From NCBI RefSeq assembly GCF_055900595.2, contig NZ_CM148325.1: 64,000 bases of DNA. One strand, 5' to 3'. The first letter of the stretch is position 1, and every line of letters starts with the position of its first letter. The notes beneath the pieces are model-generated. The model did not search any database. It saw nothing but the letters and a program-made list of their open reading frames with translations, and was not told where the DNA came from. Both the position numbers and the translations under genes were made by a program. Positions 34,462 through 39,600 of this stretch are shown piece after piece.

Positions 34462-34869
34462 ATGAACGAGAAAACTTTAGGTCAACGAATTAGAGAAAGA
34501 CGCAAACAGGTTGGTTTAAGTCAAAACGATTTAAGCAAAGCTGCTGGCGTATCTGGCTCATCAATTTCACTATGGGAAAGCGACCATACAGCCCCGCGCG
34601 GGCAAAATTTGCATCGCCTGGCTGAGGTATTGCAATGTTCACCAACTTGGATACTGTTTGGTGACGAGGATAAAACACCAGATCCACCAGTTGCACTCAA
34701 CAGCGCCTTAGACTTATCGGAAGATGAGTTGGAGATGTTGCGATTGTATCGCGCACTTCCAAAATCAGAGCAGCAAGCACAAATCAGCGAACTCCGTGCC
34801 CGCGTTGAGAATTTTAATCGCCTATTCACCGAGCTACTAGAAGCTCGCAAACGTAACAAACATCAATAA
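34462..34869 (+). CDS. CI-like repressor (XRE-family HTH, no peptidase domain)
   Basis: Start MNEKTLGQRIRERRKQVGLSQNDLSKAAGVSGSSISLWE (HTH_XRE signature); divergent from the cro-like gene. Confidence 0.8.
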   Translation: MNEKTLGQRIRERRKQVGLSQNDLSKAAGVSGSSISLWESDHTAPRGQNLHRLAEVLQCSPTWILFGDEDKTPDPPVALNSALDLSEDELEMLRLYRALPKSEQQAQISELRARVENFNRLFTELLEARKRNKHQ

Positions 34870-35120
34870 CCCCCCTTCACAAATTTTAAAGCCTTACATT
34901 TCAATGTATTGGCTTTATTTTGCATTAAATATTGAGTTTTCTAATCAAAACACTTGACCAATTTTCATGAGAAAACTAAATTACCATCCATCAAGACACC
35001 GCACGGTGTTCTCAGCAAACAGTTCCGCTACCCCGGCGTTAAGGGGAAACAGAGGATTTCTCAGTGGGCGAAGTCAAACATCAGAATGGAAGGCATCCCG
35101 GGATCGGCAAAGAAGCAGCA

Positions 35121-35420
35121 ATGGCGCTTTATATTGACATCAGCGCCATTGCCGGACAGGTAAGAATTATCAGAGCGGTAACTAAGCGGTATGTGCCTTT
35201 ACTTCAGAAAGGCTCCGGTGATTACACCGAAGATATTGTCAACGATTTCCTCATCGAATTGCGAGGACTCATCTTCAGTTACAAGGTGACCACAATTTTT
35301 GCAGATGGCTCCCGCGAAACTGTCAGAGCCCTGCGGCTTAAAGGATGTGTCGAAGACTTCGCCACCACATTCTGGGCAAGAAAACTTGATTGTATTCATA
35401 ACCAATTTCCTCTCGGGTAA
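35121..35420 (+). CDS. hypothetical protein downstream of repressor (rex/sieB position)
   Basis: ORF 35064..35420 with probable start MALYIDISAI; overlapped on the opposite strand by the zinc-ribbon ORF; only one may be real. Confidence 0.4.
   Translation: MALYIDISAIAGQVRIIRAVTKRYVPLLQKGSGDYTEDIVNDFLIELRGLIFSYKVTTIFADGSRETVRALRLKGCVEDFATTFWARKLDCIHNQFPLG
35199..35405 (-). CDS. zinc-ribbon small protein (antisense to 35121..35420)
   Basis: 68 aa with CPECGG...CKNCGH four-Cys zinc-ribbon motif. Confidence 0.45.
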   Translation of the reverse strand: MVMNTIKFSCPECGGEVFDTSFKPQGSDSFAGAICKNCGHLVTEDESSQFDEEIVDNIFGVITGAFLK

Positions 35421-36208
35421 CAGACCCCTCAGAGGATACCACCTCGCCTGACGTGGTTAAAAGCAGGCACACAACACGAAAGCGCACGGCGAGGTAGCTG
35501 GTTCATATATAGCCTGTCGTTAAATTTTCGTCGACCGTGCGCTTCCGGTTGTGGCACTCCGCGAAATGGCGCGGCGGTAAGCATGGCGGGGTTCCCTTCC
35601 CCTTGAGGACACCGGGTTGTCAGGTTGACCATGCGCCTGAGTGACAACCCCGCTGCAACGCCCTCTGTTATCAATTTTCTGGTGACGTTTGGCGGTATCA
35701 GTTTTACTCCGTGACTGCTCTGCCGCCCTTTTTAAAGTGAATTTTGTGATGTGGTGAATGCGGCTCAGCGCACGCGGAACAGTTAAAACCAAAAACAGAG
35801 TTATGGGTGGATTCTCTGTATCCGGCGTTAATTGTTAACTGGTTAACGTCACCTGGAGGCACCTGGCACCGCATCAACAAAGTTCACTTCGGTGATGAAA
35901 GGTAAGAGAAAATGTTGAATGTAGCTATTGAAAACCAGTACGGGTGGAATTATAGTGCACCTGCACCTCATAAAACGGGTGCCGGGCGTGGAAACCCGAA
36001 AGTTACTCGAGCGCATAACCGCGCCGAAGCGGTTTTTTTATGCGTAATGCACAGCCACATTCAGATAATGGTGGGGCGTGCAGGGCAGCTGCAAGGCTGG
36101 CCGGGTTCTCGAGTGACCGGTATTTCCACCCCTGTACGTCTCGCCACCCTTATGGTCGTGGAAAGCCTCGGTGGTGAGTTAATTAACTTAACACTTGAGG
36201 ATGCCATC

Positions 36209-36760
36209 ATGGCTACTACCCTTACCCTTTCTCACCCTGACGTAACCATTGAAAATGGTCGCGCTGTCACTACGTCTATTGCGATCGCAGAATTCTTCGG
36301 CAAGCAGCATCACCATGTTGTTCAAAAAATAGAGGCCCTCGAATGTTCTGAACGCTTTTTAACCAGCAACTTTTCGCGGGTTAAATTCGAGCACCGTGGC
36401 AATACCTACAATGCCTACCAAATCACCAAAAACGGCTTCGTTTTCCTGGTGATGGGCTTCACCGGCAAAAAGGCCGCTGCATTCAAGGAAGCCTACATTG
36501 CCGAGTTCGACCGCATGGAGGAAGAACTGCGCCGGAATAACACCACACCCGCTGACAAAATAATCCCGGGTGATGGCCGCACCCTGGTTATCCGCTTCGA
36601 CGAACACGGCTACATCAAATTCACCGAAACCGTTCCTGATGGCGCACTGGTCTGTACTCTGGATACTTTCCGTTTTTATCTGGAAAAGCAGGGATGGACT
36701 CTCATAAACCGGGGCGCAATTAAAAATATGACCGTCGAGCAGTTGCTGAGTATTAAATAG
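36209..36760 (+). CDS. Rha-family phage regulatory protein
   Basis: ORF 35912..36760; probable start MATTLTLSHPDV; motif TTSIAIAEFFGKQHHHVVQKIEAL typical of Rha. Confidence 0.7.
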   Translation: MATTLTLSHPDVTIENGRAVTTSIAIAEFFGKQHHHVVQKIEALECSERFLTSNFSRVKFEHRGNTYNAYQITKNGFVFLVMGFTGKKAAAFKEAYIAEFDRMEEELRRNNTTPADKIIPGDGRTLVIRFDEHGYIKFTETVPDGALVCTLDTFRFYLEKQGWTLINRGAIKNMTVEQLLSIK

Positions 36761-37146: not shown

Positions 37147-39600
37147 ATGAGCACTGATAAAGAAACTTTTGCGCTATATTGCGAAGCTAAAAATGACAAA
37201 GTCAGAAAACGCCTTGGGATTAAAGGTGGTTTTTACTGGACTACAGCAAAAAAATTATCTGTTGCCATCTCCCGCTGCATTACCGCAATGGATGATAACG
37301 ATTATGATGAAGACGACTTTAAAAAACCTGTTCGCGTCCATTTGCCCGTTGTTGATGACCTTCCACCGGAAGGCGTGTTTGATACCGAATTCTGTAACCG
37401 GTATGAAAAAGGCGGCGAAGATGGCATCACAATGATATTTATCGCGCCTCCGCCATCCGCGCAGGACAAACCAGCCAGCACTGACAACACCAATGTTAAT
37501 GGCGAAGACATGACTGAGATTGAGGAGAATATGCTTCTGCCGGTTTCAGGTCAGATTCTGCCTGTTCGCTGGCTGGCGCAACACAGCGGCGAAAAACCAG
37601 TAACGCACGTTTCGCGGGATGAACTGCGCTCATTACATAACGCACAGGAAGAAAAACTTCCCGCCGTTACCGCGCTGGCCATCTCAAATAAAGCAGCGCA
37701 ACTCGAACCGCTGGAGATTCGGGATTTGTACAAACTGGTGCGGGACACTGACAAAGTTTTTCCCGCCCCCGTAAATTCAGACCTGGGACTGATGACCTCC
37801 TTCATCGAAGCATACCTGGACGCTGACTACACTGATCGTGGTCTGCTTACAAAAGAGTGGATGAAAGGAAATCGTGTTTCTCGCATCAGTCGCACACCAT
37901 CCGGCGCTAACGCTGGCGGCGGTATTCTTACCGATCGCGGCGAAGGTTTTGTGCATGATAATGCGTCAATGGCATTCGATGTTGCTACAGGAAAACTGGC
38001 TCGTTCGATGGATGTGGATATTTACAACATGCATCCTTCACATACCAGACGTGTTAACGAAATTATCGCAGAAAATGATCCCTGTTTCTCCGTCTTCCTT
38101 AAGGCTTTTCTGAACATGCCAGGCGGGATGGATTATTCCCGCGCCATCGTGGTTGCCTCCGTGAAAGAAGCACCGGTTGGTATAGAGGCTATGCCCCACC
38201 GCGTCACCGAATACCTGAATAAAGTGCTGACCGAAACCGATCATGCCAACCCTGATCCGGAAATCGTGGATATTGCCTGCGGTCGTTCCTCTGCCCCAAT
38301 GCCGCAGCGTGTAACAGAAGAAGGAAAACAGGATGATGAAGAAAAACCGCAACCGTCTGGCGCAATGGCAGATGAACAGCCAACGACTGAAACAGTGGAA
38401 CCGGATACAACTGAACATCATCCGGACACGCAGCCGCTGGATGCTCAGCCGCAGGTGAATTCTGTTGATGCGAAATATCAGAAACTGCGGGCAGAACTCC
38501 ATGAATCCCGGAAAAACATTCCGCCCCAAAATCCTGTCGACGAAGACAAATTGCTGGCAACCTCTGGCGGAGAATTTGCTGAAGGGATTAGCGACCCGAA
38601 TGATCCGAAATGGGTGAAGGGGATTGAAACCCGCGATTCTGTGAACCAGAACCAGCAAGAATCGGAACAGAACGACCAGAAAGCGGAAAAAAACAGCCAA
38701 AATGCGTTACAAAACGAGCCAGAAACGAAACAATCCGAACCAGTAGCGCAACAGGAACCGGAAAAAGTCTGCACCATCTGCGGTCAGAGCGGTGTCGGCA
38801 ACTGTCCTGATTGTGGCGTGGTGATGGGCGACGCAACATACCAGGAAATGTTCGATGAAGATAATCAGCCTGAAGTTCAGGAAAATGATCCAGAGGAAAT
38901 GGAAGGCTCTGCGCATCAGAACAAGGAGAACTCTGGCGGCAATCAGCATCATGCCAGCGATAGTGAAACTGGCGAGACGGCAAATCCCTTAATTAAGATA
39001 ACCAGTCATCACAAATATAAGTCCACAAGCAAAACGTGGTATCACCTGATGATCGACCTTGAAACAATGGGAACCAACACCAATGCACCCATAGTAGTTA
39101 TTGGTGCGGTTTTCTTCGACCCGGAAACAGGGGAAATCGGGCCGGTATTTTATATCGTTATCAGCCTGACTGACGCAATGAATACAGGGGCTGTTCCTGA
39201 TGGTGGCACCATCGAATGGTGGCTGAAGCAGTCCAGCGAAGCCAGAGCTGCCATTTTAACTGACCAGGTAAAAATGAAAGATGCCCTTTTGCGTTTTCGG
39301 GAATTCGTCAATGAACACTCTGATGAAAAATTCGTTCAGGTGTGGGGTAATGGCGCAACGTTCGATAACGCAATTTTGCGCACCTCATACGAACGTCTGG
39401 ACATCCCCTGTCCGTGGCATTACAGCAACGATCGTGATGTACGCACAATCGTTGAGATGGGGAAAATCACAGACTTCAATGCCAGAAGCGTAATTCCATT
39501 CGAAGGCGTGCGCCATAATGCTCTGGATGACGCTCTTCACCAGGCAAAATACGTAACAGCCGCTATACAAAAACTGATCCCGAATCAGGCTGATTTTTAA
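37147..39600 (+). CDS. RecE-like N-terminal region fused to C-terminal DEDDh 3'-5' exonuclease domain
   Basis: 817-aa ORF; N-terminal ~590 aa recalled as similar to the non-catalytic part of Rac RecE ([17 protein letters not shown]...); C-terminus has Exo I (MIDLETMG), Exo II ([12 protein letters not shown]), Exo III (HNALDDALH) motifs. Confidence 0.7.

What the first reader, a model, noticed from the sequence alone, without database searches (positions are those of the whole stretch)
35121..35420. Overlapping antisense ORF pair at the rex/sieB position
Immediately downstream of the repressor, a plus-strand 100-aa ORF (MALYIDISAIAGQV...) is almost fully overlapped on the minus strand by a 68-aa ORF with a clear four-Cys zinc-ribbon motif (CPECGG...CKNCGH). 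Both look protein-like, so one is a shadow or this is a true antisense gene pair. This is the slot where lambdoid phages carry superinfection-exclusion or abortive-infection genes (rexAB, sieB).
Basis: seen in the sequence. Interest (0 to 1): 0.45.

Follow-up and report, generated by a model that had tools for sequence, protein, structure and literature searches.

The report
Antisense overlapping prophage gene pair
About 200 bases of a lambdoid prophage seem to encode two proteins, one on each DNA strand; both frames stay intact and under selection in nine prophage lineages, which makes a disputed phenomenon testable in E. coli.

Summary
A plus-strand ORF (35121-35420, 99 aa; 118 aa from GTG 35064) fully contains a minus-strand 66-aa four-Cys zinc-ribbon ORF (35399-35199), with codons exactly in register. 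In one sequence this is not beyond chance (P about 0.2-0.3).

Comparison across lineages changes that. Both ORFs are open in all nine deep lineages found (E. coli, Klebsiella, Citrobacter, Enterobacter, Serratia-type, one metagenomic). Each has its own Shine-Dalgarno and start.

Substitution counts on a tree show protein-level purifying selection in both frames:
- Codon periodicity switches frame exactly at the zinc-ribbon stop codon.
- Sites synonymous in one frame evolve slower than neutral and change conservatively in the other frame.
- Plus-frame stops are avoided: 0 seen against 6-11 expected.

The most likely reading is a true antisense gene pair. The plus ORF is the promoter-proximal gene of the DicA-repressed dicBF-type early operon, where Qin carries ydfA-ydfB. 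The zinc-ribbon gene is a nested, opposite-strand cassette with promoter-like and terminator-like elements, oriented like sieB in Rac.

It is not a rex or sieB homologue. Neither protein's function is known. Expression is untested. NCBI and phage annotators each annotate only one strand.

The parts
34465..34869 (+). DicA-like helix-turn-helix repressor gene (context)
   Evidence: ORF list. PGAP calls the 99.7%-identical copy a 'helix-turn-helix domain-containing protein'. Phage records name it dicA or 'regulator for DicB'.
34954..34982 (+). PdicB-type sigma-70 promoter-like site (TTGACC-17-TAAATT) for the early-left (dicBF-type) operon
   Evidence: Promoter scan, 9 of 12 matches. It aligns with the K-12 dicA-ydfA intergenic region, TTGACC included. 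[quoted passage not shown] Activity here is inferred.
34990..35063 (+). 5' leader shared with the K-12 ydfA leader. It includes the hairpin CCCC-N8-GGGG (35031-35046) and the Shine-Dalgarno AGAGGA (35051-35056).
   Evidence: Nearly invariant alignment to K-12. AGAGGA sits 7 nt before GTG 35064, at the position of the ydfA Shine-Dalgarno.
35064..35420 (+). Plus-strand ORF: 118 aa from GTG 35064, or 99 aa from ATG 35121. Family phrog_21318. Predicted fold alpha-alpha-beta-beta-alpha.
   Evidence: (205 bits). Open in all nine lineages. Codon periodicity and conservative replacements. AlphaFold2 pLDDT 82, pTM 0.67.
35199..35399 (-). Minus-strand ORF: 66-aa C4 zinc-ribbon protein with an acidic C-terminal tail (NCBIfam NF047912, ECs_2282 family). 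Fully nested in the plus ORF, codons in register.
   Evidence: (57.1 bits, cut-off 37). Four invariant Cys. Minus-frame periodicity in the overlap. PGAP annotation.
35104..35155 (-). Terminator-like hairpin for the zinc-ribbon transcript: 11-13 bp stem (35116-35128 with 35142-35155), then CUUCUUUGCC on the minus strand. The same DNA holds the plus ORF ATG and codons 1-11.
   Evidence: RNAfold finds it in most lineages. The six core pairs are paired in nearly all of the 22 distinct sequences. One pair is G.U on the minus RNA in 10 of 22, which is an A x C mismatch on the plus RNA. One pair shows UA-to-CG compensation. Covariation support is modest (16-18 of 500 shuffles). Function is inferred.
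35406..35414 (-). Shine-Dalgarno of the zinc-ribbon gene (GAGAGGAAA, 8 nt before the ATG)
   Evidence: Read from the sequence. Every lineage has a Shine-Dalgarno at this place, e.g. AAGGAGGT in the Klebsiella/Citrobacter lineage.
35409..35468 (-). Conserved upstream region of the zinc-ribbon gene:
- inverted repeat CCTCT...AGAGG (35409-35435)
- extended -10-like TGGTATCCT (35433-35441)
- -35-like TTAACC (35455-35460, 16-nt spacer)
- inverted repeats GCCTG-N13-CAGGC and CCAC-N10-GTGG
   Evidence: This block stays alignable between lineages whose flanks are unalignable. The hairpin stem differs between lineages: CCUCU/AGAGG against UCUUGG/CCAAGA. It is below the threshold of the promoter scan. 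The promoter role is inferred.
35677..35728 (+). DicF sRNA, downstream in the same plus-strand transcription unit (context)
   Evidence: Rfam RF00039, 76.7 bits, E = 2.3e-16. DicF is processed from the polycistronic dicBF transcript in K-12 (PMC5069750).

Best explanation
Both ORFs are real protein-coding genes that share about 200 bp of DNA on opposite strands.

The plus ORF (99-118 aa, phrog_21318) is the promoter-proximal gene of the early operon that the DicA-like repressor keeps off. It is made when the prophage is derepressed. This is inferred from homology of the promoter and leader to K-12 PdicB/ydfA.

The 66-aa zinc-ribbon gene (ECs_2282 family) is a self-contained cassette nested inside it on the other strand. 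It has its own Shine-Dalgarno, a promoter-like element upstream and a terminator-like hairpin that coincides with the plus ORF start. It is oriented like sieB in Rac. I infer that it is transcribed from its own promoter while the early operon is repressed.

When the early promoter fires, convergent transcription and fully complementary RNAs should shut the zinc-ribbon gene off. The two proteins would then be made in alternative prophage states.

Shown: conservation, dual purifying selection, translation signals, gene order. Inferred: which promoter is active when, the interference between the strands, and any function. My best guess is a small acidic zinc-ribbon protein that binds a host or phage factor in the lysogen, and an early accessory protein with a fold that matches nothing known.
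For: 1. Both ORFs are open in every deep lineage found.
- E. coli subclades, Klebsiella/Citrobacter, K. michiganensis, C. freundii, Enterobacter, two Serratia-type loci and metagenomic L117.
- This holds down to about 37% (plus) and about 58% (minus) amino-acid identity.

2. Homology between lineages begins at the plus ORF Shine-Dalgarno and ATG. It ends just past the zinc-ribbon Shine-Dalgarno and upstream element. Four lineages have strong plus Shine-Dalgarno sequences (AGGAG, GGAGG, AGAGGTG) 4-8 nt before an ATG.

3. Parsimony events per plus codon position:
- 26/30/60 in codons 12-26, outside the zinc-ribbon ORF (p = 1e-4).
- 147/37/92 inside it.
- So the dominant frame switches at the minus stop codon.

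4. Rates per mutational opportunity, using only sequences ascertained through the zinc ribbon:
- neutral proxy 0.586
- minus-synonymous/plus-nonsynonymous 0.333 (p = 6e-4)
- plus-synonymous/minus-nonsynonymous 0.222 (p = 9e-8)
- nonsynonymous in both 0.134, close to the product of the two constraints

5. Replacements at sites silent in the other frame are more conservative than random mutations:
- plus frame, BLOSUM62 0.67 against 0.06, P = 4e-4
- minus frame, 0.57 against 0.00, P = 0.004
- the same test on the minus frame outside the ORF is null, P = 0.82

6. Plus-frame stops in codons 28-91: none seen, 6.2-10.7 expected (P = 0.002 to 2e-5).

7. In the unsaturated pair L107/L108, 'synonymous' distance in the overlap is 0.13 (minus frame) and 0.10 (plus frame). 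It is 0.47-0.79 in two neighbouring genes and 0.68 in the non-overlapped part of the plus ORF.

8. The four Cys codons are invariant. The Thr/Ala codons opposite them are fourfold degenerate, yet their third base never varies. C11 is kept through TGT/TGC, which changes the plus residue T/A.

9. AlphaFold2 gives the plus protein pLDDT 82 and pTM 0.67 from 13 sequences.

10. The plus ORF always runs with the early operon. It follows the repressor in most lineages and follows cro in L086 and L087.

11. Different pipelines annotate each strand as a gene on its own: PGAP and GenBank phage records.
Against: - There are no transcription or translation data for either strand. No paper in the held library mentions ECs2282.
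- Both families are tiny: 7 cluster representatives for the plus protein and 17 hits for the zinc ribbon. Neither has an annotated function or a fold match.
- The zinc-ribbon model is poor (pLDDT 52).
- Natural E. coli alleles carry nonsense mutations in the zinc-ribbon ORF: E14* in 7 loci and in O145 strain RM10425, E44* in one locus. One allele has a 2-nt insertion that breaks both ORFs. So neither gene is indispensable to the host.
- The rate tests use parsimony on a neighbour-joining tree with long branches. The neutral proxy comes from only 25 codons.
- My Nei-Gojobori/OLGenie-style pairwise ratios are biased. The control region gives dNN/dNS of about 0.4 with no ORF there.
- The plus start is ambiguous in the E. 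coli clade: weak Shine-Dalgarno and a strong hairpin over ATG 35121, or GTG 35064 with a poorly conserved 19-aa extension.
- The promoter for the minus gene is below the scan threshold. Its putative -10 overlaps a conserved hairpin, so the real transcription start is unknown.
Confidence: 0.72

Rival explanations
1. Only the zinc-ribbon ORF is a gene, as RefSeq mostly annotates it. The plus ORF is a shadow ORF in the in-register antisense frame. It stays open because the zinc-ribbon gene happens to lack TTA, CTA and TCA codons. Its N-terminal part is conserved as the 3' UTR and terminator of the zinc-ribbon gene.
For: - The in-register antisense frame is open by chance in 22-28% of codon re-drawings.
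- The zinc-ribbon protein is the more conserved of the two (about 58% against about 37% identity at the deepest comparison).
- Minus-frame periodicity dominates in the overlap.
- A terminator-like hairpin lies in the plus N-terminal region.
- NCBIfam has a curated model for the zinc ribbon only.
Against: - Plus-frame stops: 0 seen against 6-11 expected, in sequences ascertained through the zinc ribbon.
- If the lineages were independent, all seven tested being open would have P about 8e-6.
- Codons 12-26, between the hairpin and the minus stop, show plus-frame periodicity 26/30/60.
- Minus-synonymous sites evolve at about 0.57 of the neutral proxy. Their changes are conservative in the plus protein (P = 4e-4), while the control is null.
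- A Shine-Dalgarno and ATG sit at the homology boundary in four lineages.
- The plus protein gives a confident AlphaFold2 model.
Confidence: 0.14
2. Only the plus ORF is a gene, as GenBank phage records annotate it. The zinc-ribbon ORF is its shadow.
For: - Phage annotators call only the plus ORF.
- Natural nonsense alleles occur in the zinc-ribbon frame and none in the plus frame.
- The plus ORF runs with the operon in every context.
- The AlphaFold2 model of the zinc ribbon is poor.
Against: - Four Cys in a CxxC...CxxC arrangement are invariant in every lineage. The fourfold-degenerate plus third positions opposite them never vary.
- Plus-synonymous sites in the overlap evolve at 0.38 of the neutral proxy (p = 9e-8), with conservative minus replacements (P = 0.004).
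- Variability is highest at minus codon position 3 (147, against 37 and 92).
- A Shine-Dalgarno is kept in all lineages and the stop position is fixed at codon 67.
- Only 3 shallow nonsense events were seen, against roughly 13-15 stop-creating changes expected at the neutral proxy rate (my calculation from the opportunities).
Confidence: 0.06
3. The conservation is at the nucleic-acid level, for example a cis-antisense RNA regulator of the dicBF-type operon or a structured leader. Neither ORF, or only one, is translated. The protein-like patterns are by-products.
For: - Conserved hairpins lie at both ends of the block.
- The block sits in the 5' part of a transcript that is processed to yield DicF.
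- Convergent promoters would give an antisense RNA whether or not it is translated.
Against: - Rfam finds no family in 35064-35470 at E up to 1.
- Three-base periodicity that switches frame at a stop codon, and BLOSUM-conservative replacements in each frame with a null control, are protein-level signals.
- Stop avoidance in both frames has no RNA-level explanation.
Confidence: 0.04
4. One reading: the locus is a superinfection-exclusion or abortive-infection module of the rexAB or sieB kind.
For: - The zinc-ribbon gene is embedded antisense in the early-left operon like sieB in Rac.
- It lies next to a SieB-family gene in L093.
- There are weak sub-threshold similarities to Lar-type restriction-alleviation zinc ribbons (TIGR03655, E = 0.01) and to PADLOC PDC-M14A (E = 0.0015).
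Against: - No significant match to Rex, SieB or any defence model.
- The pair is outside the rex slot.
- The protein has no predicted membrane segment like those of SieB or RexB. It is a 66-aa acidic soluble-looking protein (read from the sequence).
- Nothing has been tested by phage challenge.
Confidence: 0.15

Closest known systems
Antisense (antiparallel) overlapping protein-coding genes of E. coli O157:H7 and Pseudomonas aeruginosa (oloz0137, oloz4542, oloz5029, laoB, pop; PMC9927249, PMC5810103, PMC7103648, PMC8850804)
   Same: Two protein-coding frames on opposite strands with a long overlap. One of the two is excluded by standard annotation. Evidence includes purifying selection in the second frame.
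   Different: - Those cases are young ORFs, restricted to Escherichia/Shigella or one species, inside widely distributed 'mother' genes that elsewhere lack the overlapping ORF (PMC9927249).
- Here neither frame was found without the other in any of nine lineages spanning several genera.
- The pair travels as a roughly 350-nt mobile cassette in prophage early regions.
- Those cases have ribosome-profiling and mutant data. This one has none.
sieB of Rac, lambda and P22 (superinfection exclusion gene embedded in the early-left operon)
   Same: A gene on the strand opposite to the early-left operon, near the repressor (K-12 Rac). In L093 a SieB-family gene and the zinc-ribbon gene are neighbours on the same strand.
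   Different: No sequence similarity. In Rac, sieB overlaps ydaF by only 4 bp at the 3' ends, not by a full nested overlap. SieB is about 160 aa with hydrophobic segments; this protein is 66 aa and acidic.
ydfA-ydfB (Qin) and ydaF-ydaG (Rac): promoter-proximal small genes of the dicBF-type operon
   Same: Same slot, and the same promoter and 5' leader up to the Shine-Dalgarno. Small proteins of unknown function upstream of ydfC-dicF-dicB (PMC5069750).
   Different: No sequence similarity: the plus ORF matches no NCBIfam or Pfam family, DUF1391 included. No antisense gene is annotated under ydfA-ydfB in K-12.
Phage morons (autonomous promoter-gene-terminator insertions expressed from the prophage). 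The concept is recalled from the literature (Hendrix and colleagues), not read here.
   Same: The zinc-ribbon gene has promoter-like and terminator-like elements of its own. It occurs in different operon contexts, after the repressor or after cro.
   Different: Morons normally sit between genes. This one lies entirely inside another conserved coding frame, and its terminator-like hairpin overlaps that gene's start codon.
Lar-family restriction alleviation zinc-ribbon proteins (TIGR03655, phrog_6422)
   Same: A small prophage-encoded CxxC...CxxC protein in the early region.
   Different: Score 16.2 against a curated cut-off of 39.6. The similarity is confined to the Cys motifs. Not a member.

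Membership tests
NCBIfam NF047912 (ECs_2282 family putative zinc-binding protein) | Whole-protein HMM score at or above the curated cut-off (37 bits) | tested here: met
   57.1 bits, E = 1.2e-15, residues 4-56 on profile positions 1-53 of 60. PGAP gives this name to the identical protein.
NCBIfam NF047912 (ECs_2282 family putative zinc-binding protein) | Four Cys as CxxC...CxxC (putative zinc site) | tested here: met
   C8, C11, C33 and C36 are invariant in all homologues. Zinc binding itself cannot be tested here.
PHROGs phrog_21318 (unknown function) | Full-length HMM match of the plus ORF product | tested here: met
   205.1 bits, E = 2.2e-61, residues 20-117 on profile positions 1-98 of 99.
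Antisense overlapping protein-coding gene pair | Both frames open and conserved in divergent relatives | tested here: met
   Nine lineages have both ORFs intact. Plus-frame stops: 0 seen against 6-11 expected.
Antisense overlapping protein-coding gene pair | Protein-level purifying selection in each frame at sites silent in the other | tested here: met
   Rates are 0.57 and 0.38 of the neutral proxy (p = 6e-4 and 9e-8). Replacements are conservative (P = 4e-4 and 0.004) and the control is null. Comparison with neighbouring genes agrees.
Antisense overlapping protein-coding gene pair | Transcription and translation of both strands | not testable with these tools
   No expression data can be reached. 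Only Shine-Dalgarno, promoter-like and terminator-like signals are available.
lambda RexA/RexB | Sequence homology to RexA or RexB | tested here: not met
   No Rex hit in Pfam, NCBIfam, PHROGs or PADLOC for either ORF.
lambda RexA/RexB | Location between the repressor gene and the early-left promoter, on the repressor strand (recalled from lambda genetics) | tested here: not met
   The pair lies downstream of the PdicB-type promoter and leader. In relatives, toxin-antitoxin cargo fills the slot before that promoter.
SieB (PF14163) | Sequence homology to SieB | tested here: not met
   No PF14163 or SieB hit. A genuine SieB gene is a separate neighbour in L093.
SieB (PF14163) | Gene embedded antisense in the early-left operon near the repressor | tested here: met
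   The zinc-ribbon ORF has the same orientation relative to the operon as sieB in K-12 Rac. This is a resemblance in layout only.
Lar family (TIGR03655) | HMM score at or above the cut-off (39.6 bits) | tested here: not met
   16.2 bits, E = 0.01.
YdfA/YdaF (DUF1391), positional equivalents | Sequence homology | tested here: not met
   The plus ORF has no NCBIfam hit at E up to 1 and no significant Pfam hit. Only the promoter and leader are homologous.

The most novel reading that the evidence does not exclude
The pair is an old, obligately co-inherited sense/antisense coding unit. Its two strands are read in alternative prophage states: the zinc-ribbon protein in the repressed prophage, the plus protein after derepression. 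Convergent transcription acts as the switch. The two products act on the same process or on each other, like a toxin-antitoxin pair or an inhibitor and its anti-inhibitor written on one piece of DNA. This would be the first well-supported antisense dual-coding regulatory module in a temperate phage.
Probability: 0.2. Interest if true: 0.88.

Novelty: new variant of a known kind. Interest (0 to 1): 0.68.

Why it matters
Whether long antisense ORFs in prokaryotes encode functional proteins is disputed. Annotation pipelines forbid such overlaps. The known bacterial cases are young, narrowly distributed and weakly constrained.

This pair differs in several ways:
- It has comparative evidence for selection on both frames.
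- It has internal negative controls.
- It spans several enterobacterial genera.
- It sits in 17% of complete E. coli genomes, O157:H7 included, so it is easy to manipulate.
- Single-base mutations exist that stop one frame and are silent in the other. One of them occurs naturally.

It also exposes an annotation problem: RefSeq and GenBank phage records each report one strand, and RefSeq is inconsistent between genomes.

If the strand-per-lifestyle reading holds, it adds a compact regulatory design to the immunity regions of temperate phages, directly upstream of the toxic dicF/dicB/kil functions.

Tried and rejected
- Pairwise Nei-Gojobori/OLGenie-style ratios gave dNN/dSN 0.39 and dNN/dNS 0.23. 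The non-overlapped control region also gave dNN/dNS of about 0.4 with no ORF there. I therefore did not rely on them and switched to tree-based event counts with kappa-weighted opportunities and an internal control.
- PDB sequence searches found nothing significant for either protein.
- PADLOC, Pfam and NCBIfam gave no functional lead beyond the family names.
- The genome-contig scan returned only three generic zinc-ribbon hits in Bacteroidota, Rhizobium and Alistipes (42-45% over about 40 residues). I treated these as unrelated.
- Viral-contig scans for the distant plus homologues P0044 and P0045 found nothing. The metagenome scan recovered one P0044-like locus (L117) and none like P0045.
- A literature search for ECs2282 returned no papers.
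- Rfam found no family within the pair.
- Covariation in the hairpin at the plus start is only modest, because its core is fixed by coding constraints.
- I considered a nut-like or boxA-like reading of the conserved 35-nt element. I dropped it for lack of any test.
Full report
**The observation**

The window has a plus-strand ORF from ATG 35121 to the stop at 35418-35420. It is 99 aa, and the same frame is open from GTG 35064 (118 aa). On the minus strand there is an ORF listed from TTG 35405 (68 aa). Its likely start is ATG 35399 (66 aa, MNTIKFSCPECGG...CKNCGH...), 8 nt after GAGAGGAAA, and it ends at 35199.

The minus ORF lies wholly inside the plus ORF. The codons are in register: plus position 1 faces minus position 3. 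This is the frame in which shadow ORFs are most frequent. I re-drew synonymous codons from the window's own usage. The opposite frame then stays open in 28% of draws given the zinc-ribbon protein and 22% given the plus protein.

**Context**

The region is a Qin/dicB-type immunity region, with these parts:
- A cro-like gene and a YdaT-like gene on the minus strand.
- A DicA-like repressor at 34465-34869 on the plus strand.
- A promoter-like site at 34954-34982.
- The ORF pair.
- DicF at 35677-35728 (Rfam 76.7 bits).
- A dicB remnant.
- An isrK/C4-RNA/Rha cassette, then kil and an exonuclease gene.

Window 34952-35055 aligns almost base for base with the K-12 dicA-ydfA intergenic region. The alignment includes TTGACC and the whole ydfA leader, and the window's AGAGGA-N7-GTG sits at the place of the ydfA Shine-Dalgarno and ATG. 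[quoted passage not shown]

So the plus ORF occupies the promoter-proximal slot of the early-left operon, not the rex slot. In relatives, the space between the repressor and this promoter carries HigB- or ParE-type toxin-antitoxin cargo, and the pair lies beyond it.

**How the databases treat the locus**

- The zinc-ribbon ORF is NCBIfam NF047912, 'ECs_2282 family putative zinc-binding protein' (57.1 bits, cut-off 37). PGAP annotates it in most RefSeq genomes.
- The plus ORF is phrog_21318 (205 bits). It is the CDS annotated in GenBank phage records.
- RefSeq is itself inconsistent. In strain CRE78 both ORFs are intact and PGAP annotates the plus ORF. In O145 RM10425 the zinc ribbon carries E14* and the plus ORF is annotated. 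In RM9975 a 2-nt insertion breaks both.
- No paper in the held library mentions ECs2282.
- The pair is present in 936 of 5,426 complete E. coli genomes, at 1,399 places.

**Relatives**

I collected about 130 loci by protein, peptide-pattern and exact-protein look-ups. They fall into nine deep lineages:
- E. coli, with several subclades.
- Klebsiella variicola and Citrobacter amalonaticus.
- K. michiganensis.
- C. freundii.
- Enterobacter.
- Two Serratia-type loci.
- A metagenomic locus, L117.

Both ORFs are open in every lineage. At the deepest comparison the plus proteins are about 35-37% identical and the zinc ribbons about 58% (my count from the sequence). A profile search of 1.84 billion cluster representatives found only 7 for the plus family, so neither family was seen without the other.

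The plus ORF always runs with the early operon. It comes after the repressor in most lineages and after cro in L086 and L087.

**Module boundaries**

In a DNA alignment of 14 representatives, similarity between lineages starts at the plus ORF start. It ends about 65 nt beyond the zinc-ribbon ATG.
- At the left edge, four lineages have strong Shine-Dalgarno sequences 4-8 nt before an ATG: ACAGGAGCAGAAATG, AGGAGAGGAAATG, CAGAGGTGAAAAATG and ACGGAGGCAGGAAAAATG. In Enterobacter the frame is fused to a 32-aa extension.
- At the right edge, every lineage keeps a Shine-Dalgarno for the zinc-ribbon gene, AAGGAGGT in Klebsiella/Citrobacter. Most keep a block with TGGTATC(C/T)T (like an extended -10), a -35-like hexamer 16 nt upstream, and inverted repeats.

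A hairpin covers plus codons 1-11 (35116-35155). On the minus RNA it is followed by a U-rich run, which on the plus strand is the purine-rich Shine-Dalgarno and spacer. Its six core pairs are paired in nearly all of the 22 distinct sequences. One pair is G.U on the minus RNA in 10 of the 22, which would be an A x C mismatch on the plus RNA. One pair shows UA-to-CG compensation. This fits a terminator or 3'-end hairpin for the zinc-ribbon transcript. The covariation statistics are modest (16-18 of 500 shuffles), and the function is inferred.

**Selection tests**

My first attempt used pairwise ratios in the style of OLGenie. It gave values below 1 for both frames, but so did the control region that has no minus ORF, so I set it aside.

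I then built a neighbour-joining tree of 45 unique 279-nt cores and reconstructed changes by parsimony. I counted each change by its effect in both frames against transition-weighted opportunities.

Changes per plus codon position:
- Codons 2-26, outside the zinc-ribbon ORF: 47/42/89. Codons 12-26, which lie clear of the hairpin, give 26/30/60 (p = 1e-4).
- Inside the overlap: 147/37/92.

So the dominant frame switches at the zinc-ribbon stop codon.

Some loci had been found through the plus protein. I therefore repeated everything on the 39 sequences ascertained through the zinc ribbon only.

| Class of change | Rate per opportunity | Test against neutral proxy |
|---|---|---|
| Neutral proxy (plus-synonymous, outside the overlap) | 0.586 | - |
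| Silent in minus, replacing in plus | 0.333 | p = 6e-4 |
| Silent in plus, replacing in minus | 0.222 | p = 9e-8 |
| Replacing in both | 0.134 | close to the product of the two constraints |

Changes silent in the minus frame are more conservative in the plus protein than random mutations of that class (mean BLOSUM62 0.67 against 0.06, P = 4e-4). The converse holds for the minus protein (0.57 against 0.00, P = 0.004). The same test on the minus frame outside its ORF is null (P = 0.82). Restricting to single-hit codons does not change this.

Stop-creating changes in the plus frame (codons 28-91): none were seen. The expectation is 10.7 if only the minus frame were selected, or 6.2 at the observed constrained rates (P = 2e-5 and 0.002).

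The zinc-ribbon frame shows three shallow nonsense events in E. coli. At the neutral proxy rate, the stop-creating opportunities imply roughly 13-15 (my calculation).

An independent check uses the unsaturated pair L107/L108. 'Synonymous' distance in the overlap is 0.13 (minus frame) and 0.10 (plus frame). It is 0.47 and 0.79 in the neighbouring YfdP and DUF2303 genes, and 0.68 in the non-overlapped part of the plus ORF.

The four Cys codons never change their first two bases, although the Thr and Ala codons opposite them are fourfold degenerate. C11 alternates TGT/TGC, which changes the plus residue T/A.

**Structure and function**

- AlphaFold2 models the plus protein with pLDDT 82 and pTM 0.67 from 13 sequences. 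The fold is helix-helix-strand-strand-helix, most confident in the overlapped part.
- The zinc ribbon is poorly modelled (pLDDT 52).
- Sequence searches of the PDB are empty.
- Neither protein matches Rex, SieB, Lar (16.2 bits against a cut-off of 39.6) or a PADLOC model at significance.

Function is therefore unknown. What the sequence shows for the zinc-ribbon protein is an N-terminal C4 knuckle pair, then a strongly acidic tail with a hydrophobic end.

**Interpretation**

The best-supported reading is a genuine antisense gene pair (confidence 0.72). The plus gene belongs to the repressed early operon. The zinc-ribbon gene is a nested cassette on the other strand, laid out like sieB in Rac, and in L093 it is adjacent to a SieB-family gene.

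From the convergent arrangement I infer that the two are expressed in alternative states and that early transcription suppresses the zinc-ribbon gene. That step is not shown.

The rivals are:
- The plus ORF is a shadow of the zinc-ribbon gene (0.14).
- The zinc-ribbon ORF is a shadow of the plus gene (0.06).
- The constraint is at the RNA level only (0.04).

A sieB-like exclusion role is a functional hypothesis that is compatible with the pair but untested (0.15).

**Comparison with known cases**

Published bacterial antisense overlapping genes are young and narrowly distributed ORFs. They lie inside widespread mother genes that elsewhere lack the overlapping ORF (PMC9927249). Here the two frames are co-extensive as far as relatives can be found, and the unit is a small mobile cassette in prophage early regions. 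I therefore class it as a new variant of a known kind.

**Weaknesses**

- There are no expression data.
- Both families are small.
- The tests use parsimony on long branches, with a neutral proxy of only 25 codons.
- The plus start in the E. coli clade is ambiguous.
- The minus promoter is unverified.

Noticed in passing
window 35677-35728 (+); dicB remnant at about 35807-35881: A complete DicF sRNA (Rfam 76.7 bits) is followed only by a fragment of dicB. PGAP marks it as a pseudo-CDS in the 99.7%-identical strain Ch1. So this prophage keeps DicF but has lost DicB.
   Followed up: partly
window 35950-36760 (+): An isrK RNA (35963-36039, 67 bits), a weak c4-a1b1 target match (35950-36002), a C4 antisense RNA (36064-36151, 74 bits) and a Rha-family regulator CDS ending at 36760. 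This is a P1/P7 immI-like or Salmonella isrK-type antirepressor cassette, sitting where dicB-ydfD sit in Qin.
   Followed up: no
window 35421-35470, compared with L002, L109 and L110: ydfC lies between the ORF pair and dicF in most relatives. It is absent from the window: the conserved element after the pair joins directly to the dicF leader.
   Followed up: partly
L097 2057-2721; L099 2031-2509; L101 2228-2705: In relatives the space between the repressor gene and the PdicB-type promoter, which is the true rex-like slot, carries toxin-antitoxin cargo (HigB with an HTH antitoxin; ParE with PaaA2). It is empty in the window.
   Followed up: no
L093 3094-3489 (-); L080, L094, L118 and L121 likewise: In the Enterobacter lineage the plus ORF is fused to a 32-aa N-terminal extension with its own CxxC motif (NKCKSCGYVE). 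The usual Shine-Dalgarno and ATG are missing there.
   Followed up: no
window 35409-35468: A conserved block upstream of the zinc-ribbon gene has two overlapping inverted repeats (GCCTG-N13-CAGGC and CCAC-N10-GTGG). These lie between the -35-like and -10-like hexamers. A hairpin abuts the Shine-Dalgarno, and its stem sequence differs between lineages. This could be an operator or an RNA switch; it is unexplained.
   Followed up: partly
window 35031-35046 (+): The hairpin CCCC-GGCGTTAA-GGGG in the early-operon leader is conserved between the window and the K-12 ydfA leader. Its function is unknown.
   Followed up: no
window 37147-39600 (+): The 817-aa exonuclease VIII-like ORF carries a long acidic, low-complexity middle region. 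It also has a zinc-ribbon-like insert ([16 protein letters not shown]).
   Followed up: no
L113 (NZ_CP028432.1), L114 (NZ_CP031343.1), L115 (NZ_CP166186.1): RefSeq annotation of this locus is inconsistent. It gives the zinc-ribbon CDS in most genomes and the plus-strand 99-aa CDS in others, even when both ORFs are intact. One copy has a 2-nt insertion that disrupts both frames.
   Followed up: yes
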